Positions 1,047 through 43,607 of a stretch of 64,000 nucleotides of DNA are shown here, in pieces. The stretch comes from a virus (taxonomy: Duplodnaviria > Heunggongvirae > Uroviricota > Caudoviricetes): IMG/VR virus record IMGVR_UViG_3300035182_001709; one strand, given 5' to 3'. Position 1 is the first letter of the stretch; each line of letters starts with the position of its first letter. A program made the position numbers and the translations under genes. A model generated the notes under the pieces. That model made no database searches. It was not told the origin of the DNA and saw only the letters and a list, made by a program, of their open reading frames with translations.

Positions 1047-1119
1047 AGTGTGTCAGTCAATTGTTGACATGTACGTCAATGAAAAGCTGTCGTCAGTTGG
1101 CATCCTGGAACGCCTTTAG

Positions 1120-2646: not shown

Positions 2647-3026
2647 GTGACAAGAAGGTCGGAATCCACGAGGCCGTGTCCCAGCTGTTGGGTGAGAAGT
2701 TGAAGAAGTACATCAAACCTGAGGGTTCAGAGGAGGGCCTCAATCCCTACGTCTGCACTCAGATCTATGGTGACATCTTTGACGCGCTCGTCGAGGTCTT
2801 CACCGCCGCGCAGGTCGAGATCACCAATGAGTCGATGAACTACGTGGCGCAGCAGTACTACGATAGCATCCTCATCAACAATCGCTATGAGCTCGATCCC
2901 AACATCTTCTCGCAGCGTGCCAGGCTGGAGAACATCGAGACCAAGGAGCTGGCATTGTTGCGCATGATGCTCCATGGGACCGACTTTTCGTTGCCGATCA
3001 TTCAGGAGATCAAGCGTCGATCATGA
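2643..3026 (+). CDS. Hypothetical protein
   Basis: 127-aa ORF co-oriented with the GT cluster; overlapping ATGA-type gene junctions. Confidence 0.4.
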   Translation: MSDKKVGIHEAVSQLLGEKLKKYIKPEGSEEGLNPYVCTQIYGDIFDALVEVFTAAQVEITNESMNYVAQQYYDSILINNRYELDPNIFSQRARLENIETKELALLRMMLHGTDFSLPIIQEIKRRS

Positions 3027-3955
3027 AGGTGCACTTCGACGGTGTCAATTTCAACTCTTTGTCCGGCCCCAACACCTTCGCAGGCCGCCTAGCCCGTGGG
3101 TTGTTCGAGAGCGGACACGAGGTGACGCTCTCGGTAGCCGAGGCCGACGTTTCACTGGTCTTCATCGAACGCAGTGGGGCACCCCTTGCCAAGAAAGTCG
3201 TCCAGCGCCTAGACGGCGTCTGGTTCAAACCCGAAGAGTTTCACACCAAGAACTCGAACATCAAGGCGTTGTACGGCGCCGCCGACGCCGTCGTCTTTCA
3301 GTCGGAATTTGATCGCAACTTCGTTGAGTAGTGGTGGGGAGGCGTCACCCGGCACACCGTCATCCGCAACGGGATCGACACGGTGCCTCTCAAGGAGTTG
3401 ACCATTCCGGCGCTGAGCAAATTGGTGCATGATTATGAGCGCATCTACGTCTGCAGCTCGAATTGGCACCCACAGAAGCGCCTCAAGTCAAACGTTGAAC
3501 TCTACATGCACCTCCGCGAGAAGCGGCCCAACAGCGCCCTGATCATTATGGGTAAGGACCCTGACGTGCGTGTGGCAGACCCACACGTCTTCTACACTGG
3601 TCCTGTTGGTCCCGATGTCTACATGCAGGTGTATGCTGCAGCCTCATGGATGCTGCATCTAGCGTGGGCTGACCATTGCCCCAACGTTGTCGTAGAAGCT
3701 CTGTCACAAGGAACTCCCGTGGCATGCGCATCCGTGGGTGGAACCAAGGAACTCATCGGCTCTTATGGCCACGTCCTACAGGAGCAGCCGTACGACTACA
3801 CGCTTGAGGACTACGATAATCCACCCATGATCGATGTGAGGCAGGTCGAAGACCTGCCAGACCGTCGCGATCTCGACTATACCAGCATCGCCGACATCGA
3901 CATCAAGAATGTCACGCGGCGCTACATTGAACTGTTCGAATCGGTACTCGCATGA
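3023..3955 (+). CDS. GT4 glycosyltransferase interrupted by a single in-frame TAG (3329-3331)
   Basis: ORFs 3023-3331 (GT4 N-terminal domain) and 3383-3955 (C-domain, EALSQGTPVACASVGGTKE) are in the same frame. The only intervening stop is TAG; reading through gives ...EFDRNFVE-X-WWGGVTRHTVIRNGIDTVPL..., which restores the conserved NGID interdomain motif. Confidence 0.6.
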
Positions 3956-5120: not shown

Positions 5121-5134
5121 GTGTCAAATTCTTG

Positions 5135-5929: not shown

Positions 5930-5943
5930 TAGAATGGCCACAG

Positions 5944-6957: not shown

Positions 6958-8099
6958 GCAAGACGTACCCACTGTTCAAGGTTCACGTGGACAAGCCCCG
7001 GGCTCTTAACGAGATCGAAAAGGTCTTTGCTTCGGGTTTCATCAACGAAGGCCTCGAGGTCACCAAGTTGACCGCGGCCATGAAGCACGAGCTGCAGGCC
7101 GAGAATCTGATTCTCGTCAACAGCTGCACTTCAGCACTGACGCTGGCACTGCACCTCTCTGGCGTCGATCATCGCTGTAACGTCGTCTCAACGCCAATGA
7201 CGTGTGTGGCGACTAACACGCCGATCGTAGCCGCGGGCGCGCGGATCAACTGGGCCGACGTGGACCCTGAAACAGGCATGCTCACTCCTGAGACAGTCGA
7301 GGCCGCCATCGATGACGACACTCGAGCTGTAATGGTTGTGGCCTGGGCAGGCACGCCGCCCGACTTGAGAGGCATCCGTGAGGTGTGCAATGCTCACAGC
7401 GTTCCAATGATCCTGGACGCAGCGCACGCATTTGACGCCGGCTTCGGCGGCATGCCTGTTCACACCTGGGCCGACTATGCCTGTTACTCATTCCAGGCCA
7501 TCAAACACTTCACCACCGGCGACGGCGGCGCCCTAATCTGTCGGGCGCCCAATGCTTACCGCAGAGCCAAGGCACTGAAGTGGTTTGGCATCGACCGTGA
7601 CCGTGCCAAGGATGAGAACGGCAACTGGAAGGGCCAACAGTGGGACGTCGACATCCTCGAGAGCGGCTTCAAGTTCAACATGAACAACGTGGCGGCAGCC
7701 ATTGGCCTGTCGCAACTGCCTCACATCGATGAGATTTTGGGCGCTCACCGCGCAAATGCGTCAGTCTATGACCAGGTCTTCCGCGATTCAAAGACAGTGC
7801 GGCCGGTCAAGCGTCACCCCGAAGCGTTCTCTAGTCACTGGGTTTACACCATGCGTGTCAATCACGAGTATTCGAGGTTGACGCGCGATGAGTTGTTGAA
7901 GGCCCTCAATGAAGAAGGAATCAAGGCTGGCGTGGTTCATGTGCCCAATGATGACTACTCGGCATTCGCGCACTTCTACAAGAGCCTGCCTGGCGTCCGT
8001 GGATTTGCTGCTGAGCAATTTTCGCTGCCATGTGGCTGGTGGATCACGGAAGACGACGTTCACCACATCGCCAAGCGCGTCCTCGAGTTGACTCGATGA
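6954..8099 (+). CDS. DegT/DnrJ/EryC1 (PseC/ArnB-like) PLP-dependent sugar aminotransferase
   Basis: PLP lysine motif YSFQAIKHFTTGDGGALI; family-typical N-terminus. Confidence 0.8.
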   Translation: MSKTYPLFKVHVDKPRALNEIEKVFASGFINEGLEVTKLTAAMKHELQAENLILVNSCTSALTLALHLSGVDHRCNVVSTPMTCVATNTPIVAAGARINWADVDPETGMLTPETVEAAIDDDTRAVMVVAWAGTPPDLRGIREVCNAHSVPMILDAAHAFDAGFGGMPVHTWADYACYSFQAIKHFTTGDGGALICRAPNAYRRAKALKWFGIDRDRAKDENGNWKGQQWDVDILESGFKFNMNNVAAAIGLSQLPHIDEILGAHRANASVYDQVFRDSKTVRPVKRHPEAFSSHWVYTMRVNHEYSRLTRDELLKALNEEGIKAGVVHVPNDDYSAFAHFYKSLPGVRGFAAEQFSLPCGWWITEDDVHHIAKRVLELTR

Positions 8100-8815
8100 G
8101 CACTCCGCGCGTCTTTGTTGGGACCCTCTATTGCAAAGAGGGCGATTTTCAGGAACACTGCAAGATGATTAGTTTGCAGCGAGATGTCAACATTTCACAC
8201 CATGTGATTGCTGACCTGCCTGAAAAGGACGCGCACAATTCCCTGTGGGACGCCTGGAACAGATCGAAGACGGAATATGACCTCTTCGTCAAGATCGATG
8301 CTGACACCGTCCTCCGTGACGAAGAGACCATAAAGCGAATTTGGGCCTTGTTCGAAGGCAATCCACGGCTCACTGGCATCCAGGCTCCACTGCACGACTA
8401 CATGACTGATGGCCTAATCAATGGCCTCAACTGCTTTTCGCCGAAGGTGATTTTCAACCCGACGAATGATGGTCTGTATTGTGACCGCGGCGTCGACACG
8501 GGCCACGATCAAGTCCTGCGTCAAGGACAACTGCCTCCCGAGCTCGAGCCCGCGGGCTATCACTGTCATCACGCAACAGACAAGCAAGCATTTCACTATG
8601 GCCTTCACCGGGCCCTGAAGGGTCAGGCTGACATCATGTTGCGTGTGCAAAAGGCGTGGCTGACACATCGTGATCGAATCCGTGGCCTCGCCTTGGCGGG
8701 CACCGCAGCGGCGCCCTACCTGTGGAATCACAACTACAACGATCCTGAATTTGAGTCCGAATACCAGCGACTAGTGAAGGAGTTCGATGCGTCCCACGAT
8801 CATCCAGCTCGTTGA
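8096..8815 (+). CDS. Hypothetical protein, possible sugar-modifying enzyme/glycosyltransferase (DxD-like KIDADTV)
   Basis: ORF within the glycan cluster; weak DAD motif only. Confidence 0.3.
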   Translation: MSTPRVFVGTLYCKEGDFQEHCKMISLQRDVNISHHVIADLPEKDAHNSLWDAWNRSKTEYDLFVKIDADTVLRDEETIKRIWALFEGNPRLTGIQAPLHDYMTDGLINGLNCFSPKVIFNPTNDGLYCDRGVDTGHDQVLRQGQLPPELEPAGYHCHHATDKQAFHYGLHRALKGQADIMLRVQKAWLTHRDRIRGLALAGTAAAPYLWNHNYNDPEFESEYQRLVKEFDASHDHPAR

Positions 8816-9704
8816 CTCAGTTCAATACGTTGAGACCAACTGCTTTCAACACCAACTGCTGTCGGCACTGCGTCGCAAGGCTGAAGTGGTTCAGGTGCCC
8901 GCTGATCAACTGCCCAGATTTCGCGTTCCAGAAGGAACGCATCACGTGCTCAGCTGCCTCAAGATGAGGACGCTACACAGGCTTAAGGACCAGCTTAGGG
9001 CCGCCCTGGGCAATTGTCAACTCGTACATTATGAGCAAGATCCTTGGCATGGCTACATGGACGACAGCCCGTGGCAAGGAATTTTTGCAGATATAAAACA
9101 AAGACTTAATCTGTCGTTCGTTGCAGTCACCACGCGATGGTGGGCTGACTACATGGAGGCCGACGGGATCCCGGCACGCTTCGTCAAGATGTGGATGATG
9201 CCAGAGTACTGCGACCGCGGGCCAGCGTACCTCGAGAGACCCATTGACCTGGGATTCGTCGGCAGTCTACATCCTTACCGCAGAAAACTGTTCGACCTGA
9301 TTGAAGACAGCGGCTATTCCATCAACACTTCAGGAGGTTACGACTACTCGGGTTACCTCAAAGCGTTGCATGGAATCAAGGTCTATCTTCACTCTGAAGA
9401 CTGTCCGATCAAAGTCAATGGTGTGTTCCACAATCTCAATGACGGACTGTGGGCCCGTGAGATCGAGGTCGCCGCACGAGGTTGCATCTCGATTCGCAAC
9501 TGGGGGTCTGAGTCTGACTCGTACCTGGGAAGCGATATTCGCACTGCGTTCCTCTACCGTGACCCTCAAGATGTCCCTGGAATAATCCGGTCAATTGAGC
9601 AGATGGATCCAACAGAACGCCAGAAAAGAATTGACGACACTTTGGAGTACATTCGTTCAGCAGATGAGTGGGGTCGGACTGCAGAAGTTCTGATCAGAGG
9701 TTGA
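8787..9704 (+). CDS. Putative glycosyltransferase (CgeB-like / Glyco_trans_1_2-type C-terminal domain)
   Basis: LGFVGSLHPYRRKLFDLIEDSG region resembles CgeB-type GT. Confidence 0.4.
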   Translation: MRPTIIQLVDSVQYVETNCFQHQLLSALRRKAEVVQVPADQLPRFRVPEGTHHVLSCLKMRTLHRLKDQLRAALGNCQLVHYEQDPWHGYMDDSPWQGIFADIKQRLNLSFVAVTTRWWADYMEADGIPARFVKMWMMPEYCDRGPAYLERPIDLGFVGSLHPYRRKLFDLIEDSGYSINTSGGYDYSGYLKALHGIKVYLHSEDCPIKVNGVFHNLNDGLWAREIEVAARGCISIRNWGSESDSYLGSDIRTAFLYRDPQDVPGIIRSIEQMDPTERQKRIDDTLEYIRSADEWGRTAEVLIRG

Positions 9705-10498
9705 TGATGACTTATAAAGCAGGTCACTACACGCACGTTTCACAGAAGGCAGAGATCGGACTCGGCGTCGAACTGGAACTCGGTGATTGCAGCTACATCG
9801 GCCCGGGCGTTCGGTTCACCGGCCGCGGGCGAGTCAAGTTTGGTGACTACTGTAAGGTCCACGCGGGTTGCTTCATCAACGCTGGTGACGGTGGTTACGT
9901 AGAGTTCGGCCACAACTGCTGGTTCGGCGAGCGCACCGTCCTGGACGGCACCGGTGGCCTGTTGGGTGGCAACAACATCGGCGTCGGTATTGCCTCACAC
10001 CTCTACACTCACATTGCCCACGGCGACGTCATCGAAGGCTGCCGATTCATGAGCACCAAGCAGATGTTGTTGGAAGACGACGTTTGGTTCGTCGGCCAGT
10101 GCCTCGTCTCGCCGATCCACGCCAAGGCCAAATCGATGGCCATGTTGGGTTCTGTGGTGACGAAGGATATGGAGGTGAACCACGTCTATGCAGGCACCCC
10201 AGCCAAAGACATCACTGACAAAGTTGGCCCTCCTTGGATTCCTCGGACTGACGAGGACAAGCTGCGGTTGCTGCAAGAGACCAAGGCACGTTACCTGTCG
10301 CTGCACGAGCCCGATTACACGGGTTCCGCACAGCACACCATCGTGCCTTGCGTTGGCCTGCCGGACAAGGCCTTGCGGGCCCAAGGTGTGACCTACATCG
10401 ACGTGGTCTCAAGGAAGTACACGAAGAATTTGTCTGAGGATGAACGTCGATTCATGTCATGGCTCATCTCATATAAAGGTCGCTACGTCCCAGAATGA
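9704..10498 (+). CDS. Left-handed beta-helix (hexapeptide repeat) sugar N-acetyltransferase (PseH/PglD/WbpD-like)
   Basis: Repeated [LIV]-G-x-x-x-x hexapeptides (GDYCKVHAGCFINAGDGGYVEFGHNCWFGERTVLDG...). Confidence 0.7.
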   Translation: MMTYKAGHYTHVSQKAEIGLGVELELGDCSYIGPGVRFTGRGRVKFGDYCKVHAGCFINAGDGGYVEFGHNCWFGERTVLDGTGGLLGGNNIGVGIASHLYTHIAHGDVIEGCRFMSTKQMLLEDDVWFVGQCLVSPIHAKAKSMAMLGSVVTKDMEVNHVYAGTPAKDITDKVGPPWIPRTDEDKLRLLQETKARYLSLHEPDYTGSAQHTIVPCVGLPDKALRAQGVTYIDVVSRKYTKNLSEDERRFMSWLISYKGRYVPE

Positions 10499-10537
10499 AT
10501 TGAACAAGGACCCCGGTGAGGGGTAAAGTAAGGTAAC

Positions 10538-11497
10538 ATGAAGAGCGTTGCAGTTATTGGGCAAGGGTTTGTCGGTGGATCGCTGACCACTGTGTTCGCT
10601 GAACGAGGGTTCGACGTCTATGTCTACGATAAGGCTGGTAAGACTGCCACAGGAGCGCAGTACTCGAAGTTCGTCCGCGGCGTGGCACAACCGTGCGAGT
10701 CGGTGGCAGACCTGGTCTCCTCCTGTGAGGAAAAGAAGAATTTTTCAGGCGTCTATTTTGTCGCCCTGCCGACGCCGATGTACGAGGACGGCACTGCCGA
10801 CCTTTCGATTGTAGAGGGCGTGCTCGATGAGCTGGCGGCCTGTACTGGCAATCGCATCGCTGTCGTCAAATCAACGGTGCCACCGGGCTCGACAGAACGT
10901 TGGAACAAGAAGTACGAAGGCACTGGACTCCGCGTGATCTTCAATCCCGAGTTCCTGACTGAAGCCAATGCCCTCGATGACATGCGTAATCAGGATCGTA
11001 TCATCCTTGGTGGACCTCGTCCGTGGATCAACACCGTCAAGTTGATCTTCCAGACGGCCTTTCCGAAGGTGACGCTCATCAAGACGTCTTCCACCACGGC
11101 TGAGATGGTGAAGTACACCATCAACTGCTTCCTGGCCACCAAGGTGTCCTTCGCCAACGAGATGGCACAGGTGTGTGAGGCGCTCGATAAGCGTGGACTG
11201 AACATCGACTACGATAAGGTCGTGGAATATGCTAGGCTCGACAAGCGCCTTGGCAACTCTCACTGGGCCGTCCCGGGTCCGGTGCCCACCCACGATGGCC
11301 GCTACGTTCGTGGCTTTGGAGGACACTGCTTCCCAAAGGACATGAACGCATTGATCGCTGTGGCCAAGGACTTGGGCGTTGACCCGAAGGTGATGGCCGC
11401 GTCTTGGGCCAAGAACCTCGAGGTTCGTGGTCCTGAGGATCGTGACTGGGAACACATGCAGGGCCGCGCTGTTAGCAAGAAAGGAGGCAAGAAGTGA
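10538..11497 (+). CDS. UDP-glucose/GDP-mannose dehydrogenase family protein (short form)
   Basis: N-terminal GxGxVG NAD fold (VAVIGQGFVGG); catalytic Cys motif GFGGHCFPKD. Confidence 0.75.
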   Translation: MKSVAVIGQGFVGGSLTTVFAERGFDVYVYDKAGKTATGAQYSKFVRGVAQPCESVADLVSSCEEKKNFSGVYFVALPTPMYEDGTADLSIVEGVLDELAACTGNRIAVVKSTVPPGSTERWNKKYEGTGLRVIFNPEFLTEANALDDMRNQDRIILGGPRPWINTVKLIFQTAFPKVTLIKTSSTTAEMVKYTINCFLATKVSFANEMAQVCEALDKRGLNIDYDKVVEYARLDKRLGNSHWAVPGPVPTHDGRYVRGFGGHCFPKDMNALIAVAKDLGVDPKVMAASWAKNLEVRGPEDRDWEHMQGRAVSKKGGKK

Positions 11498-13090: not shown

Positions 13091-14479
13091 ATGTGCAACA
13101 CCGACTACAACATCATACTAGATTGTGACAGTTACAAGGCTTCGCACTGGCTGCAATACCCGCCCAAGACGACCAGCGTCTTCTCGTACATCGAGAGCCG
13201 TGGCGGCCGCGACAGCGAGACAGTCGTCTTCGGCCTGCAGTACTTCCTGAAGCGCTACCTCTCGAGGCCCGTTACCCAGGACAACGTCGATGAGGCCGCC
13301 GCGTTCTACGCAGCTCATGGTGAGCCCTTCAACAAGGAAGGTTGGGATCACATCGTTAAGGACCACGGGGGCAAGTTGCCTCTGCGAATCCGAGCAGTGC
13401 CAGAAGGGACCGTCGTCCCGACGTTGAACGCACTGGTCACGGTCGAAAATACCTGCCCACAATGCTTCTGGACCACCTCGTGGATCGAGACGATGTTGCT
13501 CCGCGTCTGGTACCCGATCACGGTGGCGACCGAGAGCCGACACATCAAAAAGCTCATCATGAGCTTCCTGGAGAAGACCTCGGATGACCCCAGGGGTGAG
13601 ATCAACTTCAAGTTGCACGATTTCGGGGCTCGTGGAGTCTCGAGCCAAGAATCGGCAGCAATCGGTGGCGCCGCGCACCTGGTCAACTTCATGGGCAGCG
13701 ACACTGTCGTTGGCGTGATGACCGCGAATCGTTACTACAAGACGCCAATGGCCGCGTTCTCAATTCCAGCTGCTGAGCACTCGACCATTACCTCGTGGGG
13801 CAAGGAGAACGAGGCGGAGGCCTACCGCAACATGCTACGGAACTTCGCTAAGCCTGGAGCACTGGTCGCGGTGGTCAGCGACTCGTACGACATCTACAAT
13901 GCCTGTGAGCACATCTGGGGCGAGACCCTGCGTCAGGAGGTCAAGGATTCGGGCGCCATCGTGGTGGTACGTCCGGATTCGGGTCACCCGCCAACCGTGG
14001 TGCTCAACTGTCTGCGACTCTTGGAGTCCAAGTTCGGTTCAACTGTCAACTCGAAGGGCTACAAGGTCCTGAACAACGTTCGCGTCATCCAAGGTGACGG
14101 AATCAACCGTGACAGCATCTATGCGATCCTGGACGCGGCGGTGAAGGCCGGCTTCTCGGCGACCAACATCGCCTTCGGCATGGGAGGCGCGTTGTTGCAG
14201 CAACACAACCGCGATACGCAGAAGTTCGCCATGAAGTGTAGTCATATTGTGGCAGACGGCCTTGAGATCGACGTCTTCAAGGAACCAGTGACCGACTCGG
14301 GCAAGCGCTCGAAGAAGGGGCGTCTGGACCTCGAGGTCTTTGAGGGGCGATTCACCACGGGCCGAGTCCCAGTTGGCAAAGAGAAGCTGCCGTACTCAAT
14401 CATGGAGACGGTGTTCCTGGACGGTGAGGTCCTGAAAGAATACACCCTCGATGAGGTGCGAGCCCGCGCAGCCCTGTGA
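13091..14479 (+). CDS. nadV: Nicotinamide phosphoribosyltransferase (NAMPT/NadV)
   Basis: 462 aa, full-length NAMPT architecture; classic phage pairing with NadM-Nudix. Confidence 0.8.
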   Translation: MCNTDYNIILDCDSYKASHWLQYPPKTTSVFSYIESRGGRDSETVVFGLQYFLKRYLSRPVTQDNVDEAAAFYAAHGEPFNKEGWDHIVKDHGGKLPLRIRAVPEGTVVPTLNALVTVENTCPQCFWTTSWIETMLLRVWYPITVATESRHIKKLIMSFLEKTSDDPRGEINFKLHDFGARGVSSQESAAIGGAAHLVNFMGSDTVVGVMTANRYYKTPMAAFSIPAAEHSTITSWGKENEAEAYRNMLRNFAKPGALVAVVSDSYDIYNACEHIWGETLRQEVKDSGAIVVVRPDSGHPPTVVLNCLRLLESKFGSTVNSKGYKVLNNVRVIQGDGINRDSIYAILDAAVKAGFSATNIAFGMGGALLQQHNRDTQKFAMKCSHIVADGLEIDVFKEPVTDSGKRSKKGRLDLEVFEGRFTTGRVPVGKEKLPYSIMETVFLDGEVLKEYTLDEVRARAAL

Positions 14480-14955
14480 GGGTTGACATGGACGACGATC
14501 CGGATTACGATGACATCATGAACGTATTGGACATCAACAACATCCACGGTACCCTTTGGCAGGGTGCCATTCCGCCGGCAGGCAGCCTGCTGCGTGATAA
14601 GGGTTTTGATGTCGTGGTGCTCGCAGCAAGTGATCACCAGGACGCCTCATGGTACCCGGGTCTTCATGTCATCCTCGCACCGGGCGATGACGATGAACGT
14701 CCACATCGACTTATGAACTTCTTGCCGACATGGCAGGCGGCCGCCCGAGAGGTAGCCAGCCACGTCAGGTCAGGCAAGAAGGTCCTAGTCACATGCATGT
14801 CAGGGTACAATCGCAGCGGGATTGTGACCGCGATGGCCCTTCATGAGTTGACAGGTTGGAATGGCCACGTCTGCGTCGAGACGATCAAACGGCGCCGTCA
14901 GTATGCCTTGTCGAACAAGACATTTGTGGCTTGGGTCCACGACAACCTCAAGTAG
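14476..14955 (+). CDS. Dual-specificity (CX5R) protein phosphatase; ends with TAG followed in frame by GTT TAA
   Basis: VLVTCMSGYNRSG active-site loop (C-x5-R-S). Confidence 0.65.
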   Translation: MRVDMDDDPDYDDIMNVLDINNIHGTLWQGAIPPAGSLLRDKGFDVVVLAASDHQDASWYPGLHVILAPGDDDERPHRLMNFLPTWQAAAREVASHVRSGKKVLVTCMSGYNRSGIVTAMALHELTGWNGHVCVETIKRRRQYALSNKTFVAWVHDNLK

Positions 14956-15229
14956 GTTTAAGCCCTCTGTGTCAATCTTTGTACATAAAAGACGAATTTG
15001 ACATCAACATGTGTCCTTTATGTGCAAAGATTACAGAAGTTTTAGGGACCTGTACAAGACGCCACCTGTGTTGTATTTACAATACAAAGGCATCGCCATG
15101 TACGTCATGTATACGCAGAACTATCCACAGATGATTCTCCGCGAGCATTAGCTGCCGCGAGGTCCTCCTTTTCGCGCTCTTACCTCACCCGTGATTGAGT
15201 GCACTTTCAGAAAGAAAAGAGAGGACATC

Positions 15230-15577
15230 ATGAAGAACATCTATTTGCGCGTACTTCGCGCCAAGATCCGCGGTCTGCAGGCCACCGGCGTTTCGATCCA
15301 CAATCGTATCCGCAAGACGAGCGGCAAGCGACGTGATTCGCTGTGGCAGGAAAAGCGAAGGATTGGAACCTTCAACAGGGAGCACCTGATTGCTTACGGT
15401 TTGCTTCGCGGCATCCCGTATGAGAGGATTGAACATTGCTCAAACGTAAATCGACCCAGTCCCGCAAGGATTCACGAGCTGATGCTCGCCCACATGCCTC
15501 CTTGGGAGGCAAAAAAGCTCACGGTGGAGGCGGTGCAGGCCCTTCTCGAGCCCACGGAAAAAAGGCTCGAAAAATGA
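15230..15577 (+). CDS. Hypothetical protein
   Basis: SD AGAGAGGA upstream; ATGA overlap with the next gene. Confidence 0.4.
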   Translation: MKNIYLRVLRAKIRGLQATGVSIHNRIRKTSGKRRDSLWQEKRRIGTFNREHLIAYGLLRGIPYERIEHCSNVNRPSPARIHELMLAHMPPWEAKKLTVEAVQALLEPTEKRLEK

Positions 15578-15933
15578 GTGGTGGAAACCACAAGGTTAAG
15601 ACGGGGGATAAATTGTACCTCGTCACGCGGCGAGACATTGCGCCTGGTTACCAGGCCGTGCAGTCTTGCCATGCCATTCGACAGTTCACGGCTGATCATC
15701 CTGATCGCGATGGTGAGTGGTTTACCAACTCTAACTACCTCGCGTTGCTGTCAGTGGCCGATGAGGTAGAGCTGATGCGTCTTATCACCGCTGCCAAGGA
15801 CCATGGCCTGCGTTGGAGTGCTTTCCGTGAACCTAACGTGGGAGGCGCCATCACGGCGATCGCCATCGAGCCACATCCCAAGACGGCAGAGCTCTGTAAG
15901 AACCTGCCACTGGCGCTCAAGGAACTGTCATGA
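15574..15933 (+). CDS. PTH2-family peptidyl-tRNA hydrolase-like protein
   Basis: KLYLVTRRDIAPGYQAVQSCHA...AITAIAIEP parallels PTH2 (VIVVRKDLxMxKGKxAAQxAHA...AFGP). Confidence 0.55.
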   Translation: MSGGNHKVKTGDKLYLVTRRDIAPGYQAVQSCHAIRQFTADHPDRDGEWFTNSNYLALLSVADEVELMRLITAAKDHGLRWSAFREPNVGGAITAIAIEPHPKTAELCKNLPLALKELS

Positions 15934-16286
15934 GCGACGAACACAAGGCGCCCGACACAATCACCTTCGATGACTTCTTGAAGGTCGATATTCGTGTGGG
16001 CGAAATCACTAAGTCAGAGGCAGTGCCCAAGAGCGACAAACTTGTCAAGCTCGAGGTCTACTTTGGATCCGAGATCGGCTATCGCACCATTATGGCCGGC
16101 ATCGCTAAGAGCTACCACGTGGAGATGTTGGTCGGCACTCGGGTGTTGGCCGTGGTCAACCTTGCGCCTCGCAAGATGATGGGCGTTGAATCACACGGAA
16201 TGCTTCTAGCAGGACATGACCCGGTGACGGGCACAGTTACACTTGCCACGTGTATGGGAGTTCCCTGGGGAGAACGAATCGGTTGA
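15930..16286 (+). CDS. tRNA-binding domain protein (Trbp111/CsaA/EMAP-II/MetRS-C type)
   Basis: FDDFLKVDIRVGEITKSE...KLVKLEVYFG...NLAPRKMMGVESHGMLLA is the canonical tRNA_bind OB-fold. Confidence 0.7.
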   Translation: MSDEHKAPDTITFDDFLKVDIRVGEITKSEAVPKSDKLVKLEVYFGSEIGYRTIMAGIAKSYHVEMLVGTRVLAVVNLAPRKMMGVESHGMLLAGHDPVTGTVTLATCMGVPWGERIG

Positions 16287-16294
16287 GCAAGGGC

Positions 16295-16325
16295 GGGCGG
16301 TGAAATTCACCGCCCGTTTTGCTTG
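16295..16325 (+). terminator. Rho-independent terminator (9-bp GC-rich stem GGGCGGTGA/TCACCGCCC, loop AAT, then GTTTTGCTT)
   Basis: Directly visible hairpin plus U-tract downstream of the tRNA-binding protein gene. Confidence 0.65.
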
Positions 16326-16327
16326 CC

Positions 16328-16936
16328 ATGAATCATGGCAACGGAAATCGCGAAAGTTTCTTCAGGCATTTGGATTCGTTCCTAGCCCCGAGCGTCATCC
16401 TCAACGTGCAGCATGCCTACACGATGGCAAAGTATGGCAACCGCGCGTAGGTTCGAAAGGAATTGGACGACCACGGTGATCCCGTCAGGTACTTCGAGCA
16501 CGTGCGCCAAGTGGCCATCGTCCTGATCGACAAGGCCAAGATCGTCAAGTCAGAGATGATAATCTCTGCGTTGCTCCATGACGTGGCGGAAGACGCTCCC
16601 AACCTGCCGCCCGTGTTGATCGAGCGCTGCTTCGGCACCGATGTCATCGAGATCATCAAGACTTTGAACAAGGTGCCCGAGGAAGGTTATTTTGAGTGCT
16701 TCAACATGTCGACCGACTGGCGTCCGTTCATCAAGGCACGTGATCGGCTCGACAATCTCAGGACGTTGGGGGCAGCCTCTAAGGAGTTCCGTGTCAAGCA
16801 GGTCGCAGAGACCCGCGAGAAGTACTTTCCGTTGTTCGACGTCATGATGACTCTGACGCCCGCACCTATCTCAATCACCCCCAGACGCTGCGTGACCTGG
16901 TCCGAGCCGAGACGGAGAAACAAGTGCTGCTACTGA
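16328..16936 (+). CDS. HD-domain hydrolase (RelA/SpoT/MESH1-like (p)ppGpp hydrolase family) with an in-frame TAG at 16448-16450
   Basis: ATG 16328 opens ...VQHAYTMAKYGNRA-TAG-VRKELDDHGDPVRYFEHVRQVAIVL...ISALLHDVAEDAPN. The conserved HD N-terminal helix (AxxxHxGQxRxxxxPYxxHPxxVAxxL) spans the TAG, so translating across it gives a complete domain. Confidence 0.6.
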
Positions 16937-16955
16937 CCGTACAATTTTGAGGTTT

Positions 16956-17028
16956 GCCTCGGTAGCTTAGCGGGCTAAAGCTGCGGTCTCTAAAACCGCG
17001 ATCGTGGGTTCGACTCCCACTCGGGGCA
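16956..17028 (+). tRNA. Amber suppressor tRNA (anticodon CUA at 16990-16992); amino-acid identity unknown; discriminator A; no encoded CCA
   Basis: Canonical cloverleaf: acceptor GCCTCGG/TCGGGGC, D arm GCTT-AGCGGGCTA-AAGC, anticodon stem GCGGT/ACCGC with loop CUCUAAA (U33, A37), T arm GTGGG-TTCGACT-CCCAC. Confidence 0.8.
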
Positions 17029-17030
17029 CT

Positions 17031-17102
17031 GCTCCTGTAACTCAATGGCAGAGTGACGGATTCTAACACCATGCGTTGAGGGTTCAAGTCCCTTCGGGAG
17101 CG
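17031..17102 (+). tRNA. Second tRNA with probable CUA anticodon (17063-17065) but a weak anticodon stem
   Basis: Acceptor GCTCCTG/CGGGAGC, D arm ACTC-AATGGCA-GAGT, T arm GAGGG-TTCAAGT-CCCTT. Anticodon loop UUCUAAC is flanked by stem ACGGA/ACCAT (3 of 5 pairs), so identity is less certain. Confidence 0.5.
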
Positions 17103-17417
17103 TCATGGAAACTGCCTTTATCTGTGATCACTGCGGCAAGCGTTGTAGCCTCGAGCAAATGCTTGAGCTCCGTGAGTGATCCAGCCTTCTACAACAACTC
17201 TGGTCTAGAGAGGCTCGCTGAATAGTTTCGACTCCGGCGCGATGAGCCAGAAGAACCGCTTCAACGTTATCATCTGTGTCATGAGTATCATCGCTATGGC
17301 GGTACATGGCGCATGGTGCCCTGTGGACCGATGTATCACGAGACAGAGCAGGAGTACTTCATTCACTGGGTTGGTGGCTCGATGAACTTCGCGCAGAAAC
17401 GTTGATACATTGTTGGA

Positions 17418-18248
17418 ATGAGCGACAGCGGCCTGGATGAGGCGAAGCCCATTTTCGAGAACCTTCCCACCGGGAAGCCTCACATTTCGTTTTCTGAACT
17501 GCGCGACTGGCAGGATTGCTCATATCGTCACAAGCTGAAGTACATCGACAAGATCGGCGTCTTCGAGCCTGTTCCCATCATCGACTTTGGGACCGCGGTC
17601 CACTCGGCCTGTGAGAAGTTCCTAGAGACGCGTGTGATGGAACCCGAGATTGCCCATATTTCTCTGAGGAAGTTCTTCGAGACGCACAAGGCCCGTCCTG
17701 CATACACGCCTGAGCTCCTGCAACAGATGTTGGCTGAGGCCACCTCGATTTGTGCAGACGTGCCGGCATTCATGGACGAGAACTTCCCGGATTGGGAATA
17801 CGTTGACGCCGAACACGAGCTCTACGAGTCGATGGAAAAGCATCCACATGCCTTCAAGGGCTTCATCGACGGCATCATCAAGGCCAAAGGCAAGCGTGGT
17901 GAACCCGTCTATTGGCTGATCGACTGGAAGACAACCGCATGGGGATGGACAGCCGACAAGAAGTCTGACCCACGCGTGCTGCAGCAACTGGTCTTCTACA
18001 AGAACTTCTGGTCATCCAAGACAGGCACCGATCCCAAGCACGTCCGCTGTGGCTTCGTCCTGTTGAAACGCAGTGCCAAGGTAGGCAGTCACTGCGAACT
18101 CGTCAAGGTGTCAGTGGGTGACGTCACCACTGGTAGGTCGCTGAAGGTCCTCAACAATGCGGTGGTTTCCATCCGCCGTAAGATCTTCATCAAGAACAGG
18201 GACTCTTGCACCTATTGCGACTACAAGAATACCGAGCACTGCACTTGA
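17418..18248 (+). CDS. PD-(D/E)XK exonuclease, Cas4/RecB-like with C-terminal Cys cluster
   Basis: RecB-nuclease motifs (DFGTAVHSACEKF; FIDGII; IDWKTT) and terminal C-x2-C-x6-C (CTYCDYKNTEHC) plus an N-terminal Cys. Confidence 0.6.
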   Translation: MSDSGLDEAKPIFENLPTGKPHISFSELRDWQDCSYRHKLKYIDKIGVFEPVPIIDFGTAVHSACEKFLETRVMEPEIAHISLRKFFETHKARPAYTPELLQQMLAEATSICADVPAFMDENFPDWEYVDAEHELYESMEKHPHAFKGFIDGIIKAKGKRGEPVYWLIDWKTTAWGWTADKKSDPRVLQQLVFYKNFWSSKTGTDPKHVRCGFVLLKRSAKVGSHCELVKVSVGDVTTGRSLKVLNNAVVSIRRKIFIKNRDSCTYCDYKNTEHCT

Positions 18249-18542
18249 TAACACCGATCAAGCCCGGCTCAACTATAAATTTCATTGTCAGCCACCTAGA
18301 CGGATCTTTGCCTCCGACAGTTGCTTACCGCACATTTGAAGGCTTGAAGCGCAAAGACGAAGATGACGTAGCGTATCTGGATTTCGAAACGATCGGTCTT
18401 GTCGTTGCGTGCCTTCAACTTGATGATGACAAATTTGCTGTGAAGGTTCTGTTAAGTGAACCGCCTCGACGGGTGTGTGACGCAATGTGTGTAGCTTCAT
18501 TCACTCCCTGGGGTGCCTGTATTGCTACGCTTTACAGATTCA

Positions 18543-19214
18543 ATGGACCAGATACATCTGGTCTGGATGTTCATCCGAACATGTGAGCGTTGTCAACGAC
18601 CCTTTGAGGCCGCAGTCGCCAGCAAGCGGTTTTGCGGCCCGATGTGTTTCTCTGAGCACCGCAAGGAGTACGGCGCCAAGAACATCGAGTCTCATAAGGT
18701 CGAGCGGACGTGTCGACAGTGTGGTAGAACGTATTTTGGACGCAAGTTCATGGGTTCTGGCAATCCTATGTTCGGTCGCAAAAACAGTGAAGAAGTCCTC
18801 GACAAGTCTAGACGAACATTGTTGCAGAACCACGGCGTAACCAACGCATTCTTTCTGAGCAAGCACCGTACGGTTTCAAAAGCCCAGCAGGAAATCATCG
18901 ATCACCTATCCAGCAGCATACCTGCAGCACAGTTTGAAGGTGAGAAACTGTTCCATGGAGGCACACACAAGTACTGCATCGACATCTTCAGCGACAAAGC
19001 CAAGATGGTCGTTGAGTACAACGGCGACTACTGGCACTGCAATCCTATCAAGTACAGCGGTTCCTTCTACCATCCACTGAAGAAGAAGTACGCAGAACAG
19101 ATTTGGGCTGAAGACGCAGAACGAATGAGCGTGATGCAACAAAAGGTTGCTACACGATCACAGTGTGAGAGAGTGAGTACTATTCTGACAAGCAGAACGT
19201 GTTTCAAAGGTTAA
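18543..19214 (+). CDS. Putative free-standing endonuclease: zinc ribbon + NUMOD-like motif + Vsr/DUF559-like nuclease domain
   Basis: CERCQRPF...CGPMCF zinc ribbon; GNPMFGRKNSEEV (NUMOD3-like); VVEYNGDYWHCNP (Vsr-like GxxWH). Confidence 0.4.
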   Translation: MDQIHLVWMFIRTCERCQRPFEAAVASKRFCGPMCFSEHRKEYGAKNIESHKVERTCRQCGRTYFGRKFMGSGNPMFGRKNSEEVLDKSRRTLLQNHGVTNAFFLSKHRTVSKAQQEIIDHLSSSIPAAQFEGEKLFHGGTHKYCIDIFSDKAKMVVEYNGDYWHCNPIKYSGSFYHPLKKKYAEQIWAEDAERMSVMQQKVATRSQCERVSTILTSRTCFKG

Positions 19215-19244
19215 CTGAGACAGCACTTTCGTGCAGCAAAAGAG

Positions 19245-20498
19245 ATGCAAGTGGTTGAAAAGAAAAAGATTTTGATGCTAAGTGACCATCCTCTTAGCAC
19301 AAGTGGCGTCGGCACGCAAGCCCGCTGGTTGATCAATGGACTGATCGGAACCGGCAAGTACAGCTTTCGCGTCTTCGGCGGCGCCATTCGTCACGAGAAC
19401 TACGACGAGATCGCTGTCAGTGAGGACTTCATCATCAAGCCGACTAACGGCTTTGGTGACAAGAATCTCCTTCGCAAGGCCCTGGTTCAGGTGAAGCCAG
19501 ACGCCTTGTTGCTTTTCACCGACCCACGGTTCTTCATCTGGGTCTGGGAGATGGAAGACGAGGTTCACCAGATCTGTCCGATCACCTACAATCACCTGTG
19601 GGACAATCCGCCTTGGCCTGAGTTCAACAGAACGCTGTACGACAGCACCGACTTGATTAACTGCATCAACTACCCAACGTACGAGATGGTCAGCAAGCGA
19701 TTTCCGGAGAAGACCAACTACATTCCACATGGAGTGCCCAAGGATCTATTCCGCCCGCTGCCGCCCGCGGATGTTGCGCGGTTCAAGAAGTCGTTGTTGG
19801 GCCCGGCCCGCGAGGACCACTTCATTGTGTTGTTTGTCTCCAGAAACGCCCGCCGCAAGATGCCGGGTGACATCCTGGTCTCCTGGCGCATGTTCATTGA
19901 ACAGCTCCGCGCTAAGTATGGTCACACCAAGGCCACGCTGGTCATGCATGCCGATCCGCTCGATCCAGAAGGTGCCAACCTGCACCATGTGCTCGACGTC
20001 CTACAGTTGAAGGAACATGTGGTCTTCTCGAAGGACAGAGTCGGGTTCCCGGAGATGGTGGGTCTCTATAACATGAGCGATGTCATCATCAATCGTTCGT
20101 GCAACGAGGGCTTCGGTCTCGGCACCCTTGAGGCCATGATGTGCGGCAAGCCGATCATTGCCTTGAAGACGGGAGGTTTGACTCGGCAGGTCGAGGACCA
20201 TGAGACTGGTGAACAGTACGGCATCGCCCTTGAGCCCGAGGTCAAGTCGCTGGTCGGCAACCAACTGGTACCCTACATTTTCGAGGATTTTGTCTCTCAT
20301 GAGACAGTTGCCAATGCATTCATGAAGATGTATGAATTGGGCCCTGAGGCTCGTGCCGAGTTGGGCCAGAAGGCATTGGCGCATGCTCACAGGGACTATG
20401 ACCTGCAGACGATCATCAATCGTTGGGACGAAACGCTGACCGACACCATTGATAATTGGCGCACACGACATAAGCGCTGGGAACACGTGGAGCTTTGA
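19245..20498 (+). CDS. GT4 glycosyltransferase
   Basis: EGFGLGTLEAMMCGKPIIALKTGG (GT4 E-x7-E motif). Confidence 0.7.
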   Translation: MQVVEKKKILMLSDHPLSTSGVGTQARWLINGLIGTGKYSFRVFGGAIRHENYDEIAVSEDFIIKPTNGFGDKNLLRKALVQVKPDALLLFTDPRFFIWVWEMEDEVHQICPITYNHLWDNPPWPEFNRTLYDSTDLINCINYPTYEMVSKRFPEKTNYIPHGVPKDLFRPLPPADVARFKKSLLGPAREDHFIVLFVSRNARRKMPGDILVSWRMFIEQLRAKYGHTKATLVMHADPLDPEGANLHHVLDVLQLKEHVVFSKDRVGFPEMVGLYNMSDVIINRSCNEGFGLGTLEAMMCGKPIIALKTGGLTRQVEDHETGEQYGIALEPEVKSLVGNQLVPYIFEDFVSHETVANAFMKMYELGPEARAELGQKALAHAHRDYDLQTIINRWDETLTDTIDNWRTRHKRWEHVEL

Positions 20499-20503
20499 TC
20501 AGA

Positions 20504-21663
20504 TGAAGACTGTGATTCTTCGGGGTCCAACGTTGACCCAATCAGGATACGGCGTTCACGCTCGCCAGGTTGCACGTTGGTTGCTCGACAAGCCCGGTAT
20601 CGATGTCAAATTTCACTTGCTGCCTTGGGGTGACACGCCTTGGTTGCTCGACAGCAACGCACATGAAGGTCTGGTGGGCGAAGTGATGAAGCGCTCGGTC
20701 GGCCCTGACGCCCATAGTGACGTGTCATTTCAGCTGCAGTTGCCCAATGAGTGGGACCCAAAGGTTGCTGCTTGGAACGTAGGCATGACAGCCGGTGTCG
20801 AGACAGATCGCTGCAACCCATCGTGGATTGAATACTGCAACAGGATGTCACAGATCATCGTTCCAAGTCAGCACGTGTTGGCCAACCTGACAAGCACGGG
20901 CAAGGTGTCGACGCCCATCGCAGTGGTTCCTGAGTCGTTCGTTGATTCGGTGCTGTTGGACGACGACAAGCTGCCTAAGTTGCCCGAGTTCTCAACCAAG
21001 TTCAACTTCTTGGTTTTTGGTCAGTTGACGGGTAACAACCCGTTCAACGATCGCAAGAACACCTTCTTCACCCTGAAATGGCTGTGTGAAGCATTCAAGG
21101 ATGACAAGGACGTGGGCATCGTCATCAAGACCAACGCCGGGCGTAATACAAAGATCGACAGGAACATCATCAAGAATGTCCTGTCGGGCGTCCTGGCTGA
21201 GGCTCGCAAGGGTCCGTATCCCAAGGTTCACCTGCTTCACGGTGACATGGATGACCTTGAGGTAGCAGCGTTGTACCGTCACCCACAGATCAAGGGCCTG
21301 GTCACCTTGACGCGGGGCGAAGGCTATGGATTGCCGATCCTCGAGGCAGCTGCCAGTGGCCTACCAGTCATCGCAACCGGATGGTCAGGGCACCTCGATT
21401 TTATGAAGCTGGGCAAGTACGTTAGCATCTACTATCAACTCGGTGAGGTACACCCGTCCAGGATCGATGGCCAGATCTTCGTGAAGGGCTCCAAGTGGGC
21501 CAATCCTTCCGAGGAGGACTTCAAGAAGCGAATCGTCAAGTTTCGCAACTCTCATACCATCCCGAAGGAGTGGGCCGACGAGCTAGCCACTCGCCTGCGA
21601 GGACACTTCAGTTTCCCGGAGATCGCCAAACAATATGACGAACTCCTGAAAGACGTGCTCTGA
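20504..21663 (+). CDS. GT4 glycosyltransferase
   Basis: LTRGEGYGLPILEAAASGLPVIATGWSGHLDF. Confidence 0.65.
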
Positions 21664-21971
21664 TGATTACGACGATTGTCATACTGTCGCTGCTCTGTCT
21701 GACACTTGCGTTCTTCATCTACGTTAGCGTAAAGAGGAACCTCGAGTACCAAGACAAGATGCAGGAAATCGTCGATCAGACAGAGGTAGCGCTTGACGTG
21801 TTGAACACGTGCTATCAACGAGCGGCCGCACGGGCAGAGCTCGAGGTCATGAGCGACGAACCCGTCGTCCGTGAGCTCGTGCAGGACATCAAAATGTCCC
21901 GTGACGCCATACTGCTTGTTGCAAACTTGATTGTCGAGCCGATTCAGGACGACGAGGAAGGCAACAAATAG
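21663..21971 (+). CDS. Small membrane protein (N-terminal TM helix); ends with TAG abutting the ATG of the next, same-frame gene
   Basis: MITTIVILSLLCLTLAFFIYV hydrophobic segment. Confidence 0.4.
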   Translation: MITTIVILSLLCLTLAFFIYVSVKRNLEYQDKMQEIVDQTEVALDVLNTCYQRAAARAELEVMSDEPVVRELVQDIKMSRDAILLVANLIVEPIQDDEEGNK

Positions 21972-43541: not shown

Positions 43542-43607
43542 TACGCCACGATCACAAAAGCTTTCACATGTAGGCCATTGGGGACGGCCTTGGTGGTGAT
43601 TACTTGC

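What the first reader, a model, noticed from the sequence alone, without database searches (positions are those of the whole stretch)
16956..17102. Phage-encoded amber suppressor tRNA(s) (anticodon CUA) next to genes containing in-frame TAG codons
A canonical 73-nt tRNA at 16956-17028 has the anticodon loop CUCUAAA, which reads UAG. A second tRNA 3 nt downstream (17031-17102) also has CUA at the anticodon position, although its anticodon stem is weak. Two conserved enzyme genes in this window (GT4 at 3023-3955 and the HD hydrolase immediately upstream of the tRNAs) are interrupted only by single in-frame TAGs, and TAG is otherwise almost unused as a terminator (TGA >> TAA > TAG). Together this suggests TAG suppression or recoding, either constitutive (code-15-like) or as a timing switch that makes some proteins only once the suppressor is expressed. 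In a high-GC T4-like phage this would be unusual.
Basis: partly seen in the sequence, partly recalled or inferred. Interest (0 to 1): 0.9.

Follow-up and report, generated by a model that had tools for sequence, protein, structure and literature searches.

The report
Tandem amber-suppressor tRNAs in jumbo phage
A roughly 309-kb phage carries two adjacent tRNA genes that would read the UAG stop codon, but it still uses the standard genetic code, and its few UAG-interrupted genes are two decaying pseudogenes and one rare single-base variant, so this is a further case of something already seen in other giant phages.

Summary
The two CUA-anticodon tRNA genes are real (16956-17028 and 17031-17102). 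tRNA1 is a clean cloverleaf and looks like a tRNA-Lys(CUU) with one anticodon change. tRNA2 belongs to a CUA-tRNA lineage kept at the same locus in related phages, with 12 of 21 pairs showing compensatory changes. The window's copy is the only one with a damaged anticodon stem.

The in-frame TAGs are also real, and I found a third at 17223. They do not indicate recoding:
- **GT4 TAG (3329):** a single T/A variant. Four other contigs of the same phage carry AAG (Lys) and an intact 310-aa gene.
- **HD gene:** besides its TAG it has a 1-nt deletion, a codon deletion and 14 changes at 82 conserved positions. It is a pseudogene.
- **Small gene after tRNA2:** it has a TAG and a frameshift.

Structural genes contain no TAG, and TAG still terminates 3-4 genes. 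With this codon usage 55% of random nonsense mutations give TAG, so three of three has p=0.17. The phage also encodes an RF1-like factor, not RF2.

Tandem or paired CUA tRNAs are already recorded in XacN1, Phosso and the 735-kb huge phage. Verdict: standard-code phage with suppressor tRNAs of unknown target; new member of a known kind.

The parts
16956..17028 (+). tRNA1, anticodon CUA (loop CUCUAAA), discriminator A73, no encoded CCA. Canonical cloverleaf with a tRNA-Lys(CUU)-like body.
   Evidence: ARAGORN. Rfam tRNA 60.4 bits with all pairs standard. 84% identical to a phage tRNA-Lys(CUU) in L070, with the same T arm and a near-identical anticodon stem, and an anticodon loop differing only at U36A. 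None of 7,547 cross-phage tRNA pairs in the ad hoc library reaches 84%. blastn hits in cultured phages are annotated tRNA-Lys, plus CUA tRNAs of Phosso and LR756501.
17031..17102 (+). tRNA2, anticodon CUA (loop UUCUAAC), discriminator G73. Anticodon stem has only 3 of 5 pairs. Member of a conserved CUA-tRNA lineage, but the one degenerate copy.
   Evidence: Rfam 48.8 bits with two non-standard pairs. The MFE fold is not a cloverleaf. Homologues L027, L054 and L037 sit at the same locus. 12 of 21 pairs have changes on both sides and 97.6% of cells are paired; the only two unpaired cells are this copy's.
16328..16950 (+). RelA/SpoT-type HD (HD_4) gene, here a pseudogene. TAG at 16448-16450 replaces a Gln that all 22 aligned homologues keep. 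A 1-nt deletion at 16865-16866 shifts the frame; the restored frame ends at TGA 16948-16950, 5 nt before tRNA1.
   Evidence: Pfam HD_4. L001 has CAA at the TAG position. Alignment A4. 14 of 82 departures at columns at least 90% conserved, against 0-5 in equally close homologues. Frame switch by tblastn. The split gene is the only allele on record, on 9 contig records, and is identical in two independent assemblies.
17106..17405 (+). Remnant of a small Zn-ribbon gene found between the tRNA and the nuclease gene in relatives. The N-terminal part is in one frame (17108-17173) and the rest in another (17181-17402), with an in-frame TAG at 17223-17225.
   Evidence: Three-frame translation. tblastn with the L037 and L027 proteins gives two HSPs in different frames, and the second (E = 2e-18) spans the TAG, which aligns with Gly.
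3023..3955 (+). GT4-type glycosyltransferase with TAG at 3329-3331. This is a minority allele of AAG (Lys103).
   Evidence: Pfam. Homologues mostly have Lys there, in the motif FVEKWWG. L072, L073 and L059 are identical to the window apart from A at 3329. The intact 310-aa P0241 is on 4 contigs and the 190-aa fragment P0085 on 1. Constraint is normal: 4 of 144 departures.
14953..14955 (+). Genuine TAG terminator of the dual-specificity phosphatase gene, followed one codon later by TAA.
21969..21971 (+). Genuine TAG terminator of a small membrane-protein gene. The next gene (gp55-like) starts at the following ATG in the same frame.
   Evidence: In 57 relatives the two genes are in frame in 19 (one third, as chance predicts) and are mostly separated by TGA.

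Best explanation
This is a standard-code jumbo phage (JGI contig of about 309 kb, 55% GC, distantly T4-like). Outside its main tRNA array it carries a tandem pair of amber-suppressor tRNA genes. tRNA1 is intact. By descent it is a tRNA-Lys(CUU) with U36 changed to A, so it would most likely be charged by the host LysRS and insert Lys at UAG in competition with RF1. tRNA2 comes from a second, older CUA-tRNA lineage (Lys- or Trp-like body, G73) that related phages keep at the same site, but in this genome its anticodon stem has decayed. The in-frame TAGs are not programmed targets. Two lie in genes flanking the tRNAs that are already dead (HD and the small Zn-ribbon gene, each also frameshifted). 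One is a recent AAG-to-TAG variant of the GT4 gene present in a minority of the population. A Lys-inserting suppressor would make that GT4 allele phenotypically near wild type. That could help such an allele persist, which would be nonsense buffering rather than recoding. Shown: tRNA structures and anticodons, conservation and covariation, gene lesions, the polymorphism, and the stop-codon survey of the window. Inferred: expression, aminoacylation, the inserted amino acid, and any rescue of the GT4 allele. What the suppressors are selected for remains unknown, as in XacN1.
For: tRNAs. Lys ancestry of tRNA1. Lineage conservation and covariation of tRNA2-type CUA tRNAs. No in-frame TAG in other genes of the window, including about 20 kb of structural genes. 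Genuine TAG terminators. GT4 TAG is a single-base variant of AAG. HD pseudogene. Third TAG plus frameshift. The lesions and tRNAs are identical in independent assemblies. With this genome's codon usage, 55% of random nonsense mutations give TAG, so three of three has p = 0.17. RF1-like rather than RF2 factor. Precedents in standard-code jumbo phages.
Against: Only 64 kb of about 309 kb could be examined, so TAG-bearing genes elsewhere (capsid, portal, terminase, lysis) are not excluded. All three nonsense lesions are TAG and two lie right beside the suppressors, which is suggestive even if not significant. TAG terminators among long ORFs are fewer than in GC-matched relatives (1/42 against 18/117, p = 0.026). 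Amino-acid identity is inferred from sequence similarity and from E. coli identity rules recalled from memory. The host is unknown. The single-contig TAG allele of GT4 could be an assembly or consensus artefact rather than a real minority allele.
Confidence: 0.55

Rival explanations
1. Incipient or regional TAG reassignment. The suppressors decode UAG as Lys and/or Gln in a set of phage genes, most of them outside this window, as in phages where recoding is confined to late or lysis modules. The lesions seen here would be the visible edge of that process.
For: Two suppressor tRNAs. All three nonsense lesions are TAG. The GT4 TAG replaces Lys and tRNA1 is Lys-derived. The HD TAG replaces an invariant Gln. 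TAG terminators are rather rare. Borges et al. describe suppressor acquisition preceding recoding.
Against: No TAG in the baseplate, tail-fibre and other late genes present in the window. TAG terminators are retained, including one that would fuse two genes. Two of three TAG genes are also frameshifted. The third TAG is a minority allele. The phage has an RF1-type factor and 55% GC, both opposite to the known pattern. The 11 kb and 5.6 kb held from relatives with perfect CUA tRNAs show no internal TAG.
Confidence: 0.12
2. The whole 16.3-17.4 kb segment is decaying, suppressors included. The tRNAs are relics no longer under selection in this phage, and their proximity to TAG lesions is coincidence.
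For: Both flanking genes are pseudogenes with frameshifts. tRNA2 is the only family member with broken anticodon-stem pairs. Three of three TAG is not significant.
Against: tRNA1 has no defect: 60.4 bits, all pairs standard, U33 and A37 present. Close homologues with the same anticodon arm exist in Phosso and LR756501. The segment is identical in independent assemblies.
Confidence: 0.15
3. The suppressors act mainly on the host or on competitors rather than on phage genes. They might cause read-through of host UAG-terminated genes during takeover, act as Lys/Trp-like tRNA decoys against anticodon nucleases, or work together with the phage RF1-like factor to retune termination.
For: CUA tRNAs recur, often in pairs, in unrelated standard-code jumbo phages where no phage targets were found. 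The lineage is conserved without visible TAG targets in relatives. The genome is rich in tRNA and translation repair genes: two PTH2, a tRNA-binding protein, two RNA ligases and an RF1-like factor.
Against: No direct evidence. No defence or anti-defence gene is linked to the tRNAs. A tRNA with CUA cannot replace a cleaved Lys or Trp tRNA in decoding.
Confidence: 0.18

Closest known systems
Xanthomonas citri jumbo phage XacN1: two CUA suppressor tRNA genes (PMC5852040)
   Same: A jumbo myovirus of a high-GC host with the standard code and dozens of tRNAs. It has two tRNA(CUA) genes, and in-silico read-through of its amber stops revealed no target genes.
   Different: In XacN1 the suppressors lie in the terminal-repeat tRNA array. 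Here they are a separate tandem pair far from the main array. No sequence relationship between the phages was detected.
735-kb huge phage LR756501 (Al-Shayeb et al. 2020) and Sinorhizobium jumbo phage Phosso PV764938
   Same: LR756501 has two CUA tRNAs 4 nt apart. One is of tRNA1 type (GCUU/AAGC D stem, loop CUCUAAA, 4-nt variable loop) and one has a tRNA2-type loop (UUCUAGC). Phosso's annotated 'tRNA-Pyl(cta)' shares tRNA1's whole anticodon arm and T stem.
   Different: The order of the two types is reversed in LR756501. Their genomic neighbourhoods differ. Nothing is published, as far as I found, on the function of these pairs.
TAG-recoded (code 15) phages: Lak, crAss-like, Agate and others (Borges et al., 10.1101/2021.08.26.457843; PMC13037316)
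   Same: Phage-encoded tRNA(CUA), and in-frame TAG in some genes. Their model has suppressor acquisition by standard-code phages preceding recoding.
   Different: Those phages are low-GC and have TAG in many structural and lysis genes. Their TAG aligns with Gln, they avoid TAG stops, and where they carry a release factor it is RF2. Here GC is 55% and there are three TAGs, in two pseudogenes and one minority allele. The aligned residues are Gln, Lys and Gly, TAG stops are retained, and the factor is RF1-like.
Laboratory amber suppressors of E. coli (from memory: supE, su7 from tRNA-Trp, synthetic tRNA-Lys(CUA); Normanly and Kleina 1990)
   Same: They arise by a single anticodon substitution of a sense tRNA, decode UAG partially in competition with RF1, and the cell tolerates read-through of natural TAG stops. 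CUA anticodons tend to be charged with Gln or Lys.
   Different: Those are host chromosomal mutants. Here the genes are phage-borne, paired, and conserved in a phage lineage.

Membership tests
Elongator tRNA (Rfam RF00005) | Cloverleaf scoring above the family's gathering score (29 bits) | tested here: met
   60.4 bits (tRNA1) and 48.8 bits (tRNA2), full-length model matches.
Elongator tRNA (Rfam RF00005) | Five-pair anticodon stem closing a 7-nt loop with U33 and a purine at 37 | tested here: inconclusive
   tRNA1 meets it: GCGGU/ACCGC with loop C-U-CUA-A-A. tRNA2 has U33 and A37 but only 3 of 5 stem pairs (C.A and A.A mismatches). All three homologues have full stems.
Amber suppressor tRNA | Anticodon CUA at positions 34-36 | tested here: met
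   ARAGORN and the cmscan alignment place CUA at 34-36 in both tRNAs.
Amber suppressor tRNA | Expressed, aminoacylated, and inserts an amino acid at UAG in vivo | not testable with these tools
   Only indirect evidence: lineage conservation with compensatory changes and a Lys-tRNA-like body.
tRNA-Pyl (ARAGORN's label) | Pyl-type architecture (3-nt variable loop, 6-bp anticodon stem, reduced D loop; features recalled from memory) with pylS and pylBCD genes | tested here: not met
   Both tRNAs have standard D loops containing GG, 5-position anticodon stems and 4-5-nt variable loops. No Pyl genes appeared among the window proteins scanned. The label only reflects the CUA anticodon.
TAG-recoded (code 15-like) phage | In-frame TAG in many intact genes, especially structural and lysis genes | tested here: not met
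   The window has three in-frame TAGs. Two are in frameshifted genes and one is a minority allele. None is in the 23-39 kb structural block. Only 64 of about 309 kb was tested.
TAG-recoded (code 15-like) phage | TAG no longer used as a terminator | tested here: not met
   TAG terminates the phosphatase gene (14953), the membrane-protein gene (21969) and probably a small ORF at 39330(-).
TAG-recoded (code 15-like) phage | TAG positions align consistently with one amino acid (Gln) in homologues | tested here: not met
   The aligned residues are Gln in HD (22 of 22), Lys in GT4 (majority, and the phage's own other allele) and Gly or Asp in the small gene.
TAG-recoded (code 15-like) phage | Accessory factors favouring recoding (RF2 rather than RF1) | tested here: not met
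   The encoded factor scores prfA 219 bits against prfB 135 bits and has a PxT-type tripeptide, PPT.
Standard-code jumbo phage carrying CUA tRNAs (XacN1 type) | CUA tRNA gene(s) in a genome otherwise read with code 11, with no evident programmed TAG targets | tested here: met
   within the 64 kb available.

The most novel reading that the evidence does not exclude
The tandem pair (a Lys-type and a Trp/Lys-type CUA tRNA), which recurs in unrelated jumbo phages, may work together with the frameshift-controlled RF1-like factor as a phage system that tunes termination at UAG during infection. This would include UAG-to-Lys decoding, which I do not know to be described for phages, with real targets in the 245 kb of this genome that I could not see or in the host.
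Probability: 0.12. Interest if true: 0.75.

Novelty: new member of a known kind. Interest (0 to 1): 0.33.

Why it matters
Phage-encoded suppressor tRNAs in standard-code phages are a known but unexplained observation. XacN1's authors could find no targets.

This case adds a few useful points:
- One suppressor is traceable to tRNA-Lys(CUU) by a single base change.
- A second CUA lineage is kept under selection at a fixed locus in related phages.
- The same two types occur in tandem in the 735-kb huge phage.

It also shows how in-frame TAGs next to suppressor tRNAs can mislead. Here they are pseudogene lesions and a minority variant, not recoding. If a Lys-inserting suppressor does mask AAG-to-TAG mutations, it would be a concrete example of the 'suppressor first, in-frame stops later' route to recoding proposed by Borges et al., in a GC-rich environmental phage rather than a low-GC gut phage.

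Tried and rejected
1. **tRNA-Pyl (ARAGORN label).** Rejected on structure.

2. **Programmed read-through fusing the membrane protein to the gp55-like protein at TAG-ATG (21969).** Rejected. In 57 relatives the genes are in frame in 19, which is chance, and they are mostly separated by TGA, including in the CUA-tRNA-bearing relative L077.

3. **TAG-terminator depletion as evidence for suppression.** Not robust: p = 0.026, 0.09 or 0.35 depending on the gene set.

4. **'Only TAG interrupts genes' as evidence.** 55% of random nonsense mutations would give TAG here, so three of three has p = 0.17.

5. **Quadruplet decoding at the TAGs to explain the frameshifts.** Rejected. Homology stays in the same frame across each TAG, and the frame changes lie 50-400 nt away.

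6. **Other apparent in-frame TAGs** (2604, 2622, 11473, 15149, 23194, 25501, 25985, 25997, 40942, 57808, 57967). These lie upstream of the real starts.

7. **In-frame TAG in the pieces held from relatives with perfect CUA tRNAs (L036, L054).** None found.

8. **Searches that gave nothing.**
   - megablast of 14-20 kb against cultured phages.
   - Exact tRNA1 arm in IMG/VR.
   - Look-ups of the 190-aa GT fragment and the 485-aa right-end protein.
   - Promoter and terminator scan around the tRNAs, which was uninformative.

9. **Walking out of the window to survey the whole genome.** Not possible with the look-up rules. Only about 3 kb on the left and about 7 kb on the right were reached, and neither was scanned for in-frame TAG.

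Full report
**1. What is there**

ARAGORN reports 28 tRNA genes in the window. Twenty-six lie on the - strand between 43.6 and 54.2 kb. Two lie on the + strand at 16956-17029 and 17030-17104, both with anticodon CUA.

Rfam's tRNA model matches 16956-17028 at 60.4 bits and 17031-17102 at 48.8 bits, against a gathering score of 29.

- **tRNA1** has every stem pair standard, the loop C-U-CUA-A-A and discriminator A73.
- **tRNA2** has the loop U-U-CUA-A-C and G73. Two of its five anticodon-stem positions are mismatched, C28.A42 and A31.A39. On its own it does not fold into a cloverleaf (z = -1.3, against -3.4 to -3.6 for its homologues).
- Neither tRNA has Pyl-type architecture. ARAGORN's 'Pyl' label only reflects the anticodon.

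**2. The genome**

The window is 55.2% GC. It contains:
- a large sugar and glycosyltransferase cluster;
- NAD salvage genes and a dual-specificity phosphatase;
- PTH2, a tRNA-binding-domain protein, then the HD gene, the two tRNAs and a PD-(D/E)XK nuclease;
- a gp55-like gene, gp25- and gp6-like baseplate genes, large tail proteins and an RnlA-like ligase.

No cultured phage is close. Relatives are IMG/VR and metagenome contigs of up to 370 kb. The source is a JGI contig of about 309 kb. The same phage was assembled independently from several sequencing runs. L057 and L058 are 100% identical to window 14418-21248.

**3. Survey for in-frame TAG**

I treated only TAA and TGA as stops and scored coding potential, then read the translations. 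Most 'internal' TAGs lie upstream of the true start codon or are genuine terminators:
- 14953: phosphatase gene, TAG GTT TAA.
- 21969: small membrane-protein gene, followed by the ATG of the next gene.
- 39330(-): probably a terminator of a small ORF.

A third, at 17223, lies in the small gene between tRNA2 and the nuclease gene. There is none in the 23-39 kb structural block.

Among about 66 predicted genes the stops are TGA 48, TAA 11 and TAG 7, the 7 including 2 of the 3 internal TAGs.

**4. The GT4 TAG is a minority single-base variant**

Homologues mostly have Lys at this position, in the motif FVEKWWG. Other assemblies of this same phage are identical to the window over up to 3.9 kb except for A instead of T at 3329. 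These are L072 (a 74-kb contig), L073 and the end of L059. They give AAG and an intact 310-aa gene.

In the protein collection the intact protein (P0241, K103) is on 4 contigs. The 190-aa fragment (P0085) is on 1. The gene is otherwise under normal constraint, with 4 departures at 144 conserved columns.

**5. HD is a pseudogene**

- The TAG replaces a Gln that all 22 aligned homologues keep.
- The gene also lacks one nucleotide at 16865-16866. Homology to relatives' C-termini continues in another frame, as two tblastn HSPs in frames 2 and 1.
- It lacks one codon in the WRPY.IK motif.
- It departs from the consensus at 14 of 82 columns that are at least 90% conserved. Homologues of similar divergence show 0-5 departures.
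- Only the split form is on record, on 9 contig records.

**6. The small gene after tRNA2 is also broken**

Its Zn-ribbon N-terminus (17108-17173) and the remainder (17181-17402) are in different frames. The remainder contains the TAG at 17223, aligned with Gly in L037.

So both genes flanking the tRNAs carry a TAG and a frameshift, and the adjacent tRNA2 carries two stem mismatches. This is a decaying segment, in which tRNA1 is the intact element.

**7. Is 'only TAG' meaningful?**

With this genome's codon usage (AAG, GAG and CAG are abundant), 55% of single-base nonsense mutations produce TAG. Three of three has p = 0.17.

TAG terminators among long ORFs number 1 of 42, against 18 of 117 in relatives with at least 50% GC (p = 0.026). 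The contrast fades with other gene sets (p = 0.09 and 0.35).

Neither statistic establishes suppression.

**8. The tRNAs themselves are under selection as CUA tRNAs**

At the same place, upstream of the nuclease gene, relatives carry tRNA2-type genes:
- L027 and L054 have perfect cloverleaves with CUA.
- L037 has CUA in an 8-nt loop.

On a structure-registered alignment of the four, 97.6% of cells pair and 12 of 21 pairs change on both sides. Slid controls drop to 30-45% paired. The only unpaired cells are the window's. These phages range from 39 to 55% GC, and their nucleases are 59-78% identical to the window's.

tRNA1 is 84% identical to a phage tRNA-Lys(CUU) in L070. The T arm is identical, the anticodon stem is nearly so, and the anticodon loop differs only at U36A. 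No pair among 7,547 cross-phage comparisons of standard tRNAs reaches that level; the maximum for different amino acids is 82%.

In cultured phages, tRNA1's blastn hits are:
- annotated tRNA-Lys genes of Streptomyces phages;
- the 'tRNA-Pyl(cta)' of Sinorhizobium jumbo phage Phosso, which has the same anticodon arm;
- the 735-kb huge phage LR756501, which has two CUA tRNAs 4 nt apart, one of each type.

tRNA2-type hits are annotated tRNA-Lys, tRNA-Trp or tRNA-Asn, so its ancestry is ambiguous.

From E. coli identity rules (recalled from memory), CUA tRNAs tend to be charged with Lys (A73) or Gln (G73). That would match the Lys site in GT4 and the Gln site in HD. This is inference only.

**9. 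Evidence against a recoding system**

- The window encodes an RF1-type factor, not RF2, whereas TAG-recoded phages carry RF2 where they carry a release factor.
- The genome is not low-GC.
- TAG stops are retained.
- The pieces held from relatives with perfect CUA tRNAs show no internal TAG.

**10. Comparison with what is known**

- Suppressor tRNAs in code-15 phages are well described.
- Borges et al. also report suppressor tRNAs in standard-code relatives and propose that acquisition precedes recoding.
- XacN1, a standard-code jumbo phage of a GC-rich host, has two CUA tRNAs with no identifiable targets.
- Huge phages are known to encode RF1 and RF2.

The present case is therefore a further member of a known kind. 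It comes with extra detail on the ancestry and conservation of the tRNAs, and a clear demonstration that the neighbouring TAGs are lesions.

**11. Verdict**

- Observation: largely confirmed.
- Interpretation: half right. The suppressor tRNAs are real; recoding or a timing switch is not supported.
- Best explanation: a standard-code phage with at least one functional, probably Lys-inserting, amber suppressor. Its selected role is unknown. It may incidentally buffer amber alleles such as the GT4 variant. Confidence is about 0.55.
- Main limitation: 245 kb of the genome could not be inspected.

Noticed in passing
window 48684-49353, - strand (frameshift site 49238-49253): A release factor lacking domain 1, closest to RF1: prfA 219 bits, prfB 135, prfH 96; best PDB match RF1 residues 87-312. 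It has the tripeptide PPT and GGQ, but Gln replaces the His of RIHTS. It is encoded in two frames joined at GGAGG-GGT-CTT-TGA, the prfB-type +1 programmed frameshift cassette. Seventy-nine IMG/VR loci hold homologues, many on contigs of 100-480 kb. Thirty-four distinct loci keep CTTTGA in register. Twenty-seven of these have the ORF0 motif (xIEIRAAEGG, typically within an ORF0 of about 35 codons ending ...RRGL), and 25 have an SD-like GGAGG. A 2025 survey found no programmed frameshift in bacterial prfA (PMC12421855). Gene callers annotate only the 173-aa C-terminal part.
   Followed up: partly
L001 6600-6673 and 7136-7212; L040 260-339; L037 520-593: At the same locus as the window's CUA tRNAs, relatives carry tRNAs with 8-nt anticodon loops: UUUUCAAC, ACUUCAAA, AUUUCAAC and ACUCUAAG. 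The extra base is on the 5' side, as in the +1 frameshift suppressor SufJ (PMC4238358). Read with U33 fixed, the anticodons are UCA (opal) or CUA. ARAGORN calls them 4-base anticodons (ttca). They might be opal or quadruplet decoders, although TGA is the main stop codon in these phages.
   Followed up: partly
L142 (LR756501.1 690585-690738): The 735-kb huge phage has two CUA tRNAs 4 nt apart. One is tRNA1-type and one has a tRNA2-type loop, in the opposite order to the window. Sinorhizobium phage Phosso (L141 2994-3069) has a tRNA1-type CUA tRNA annotated as tRNA-Pyl.
   Followed up: partly
window 15436-16286, 39626-40897, 42849-43616, 45500-46039, 48181-48660: The window holds several tRNA and translation maintenance genes. 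Two are PTH2-type peptidyl-tRNA hydrolases, one next to the suppressor locus and one inside the tRNA array. The others are a tRNA-binding-domain (CsaA/Trbp111-like) protein, an RnlA-like RNA ligase, a second weak RNA-ligase match and a NADAR protein.
   Followed up: no
window 53678-53773 (-), 52489-52559 (-), 50403-50467 (-), 47332-47394 (-), 51436-51489 (-): The main array contains an ARAGORN tRNA with a 4-base anticodon (gttc, 96 nt). It also contains several Rfam-only, short or weak tRNA matches (29-43 bits) that ARAGORN does not call. These may be degenerate or unusual tRNAs.
   Followed up: no
window 219-11497 and 19245-21663: A large glycan-synthesis cluster. It includes a GT2, at least five GT4/GT1-type transferases, a PseB/Polysacc_synt_2 dehydratase, a DegT aminotransferase and a UDP-glucose dehydrogenase-like gene. 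The GT4 orthologue is conserved in at least 665 metagenomic proteins, many on phage contigs over 100 kb.
   Followed up: no
window 16290-16325: A GC-rich hairpin followed by a T run (GGGCGGGCGGTGAAATTCACCGCCCGTTTTGCTT) lies between the tRNA-binding-protein gene and the HD pseudogene. It looks like an intrinsic terminator but was not called by the scan. If it is active, HD and the two tRNAs would need their own promoter.
   Followed up: no
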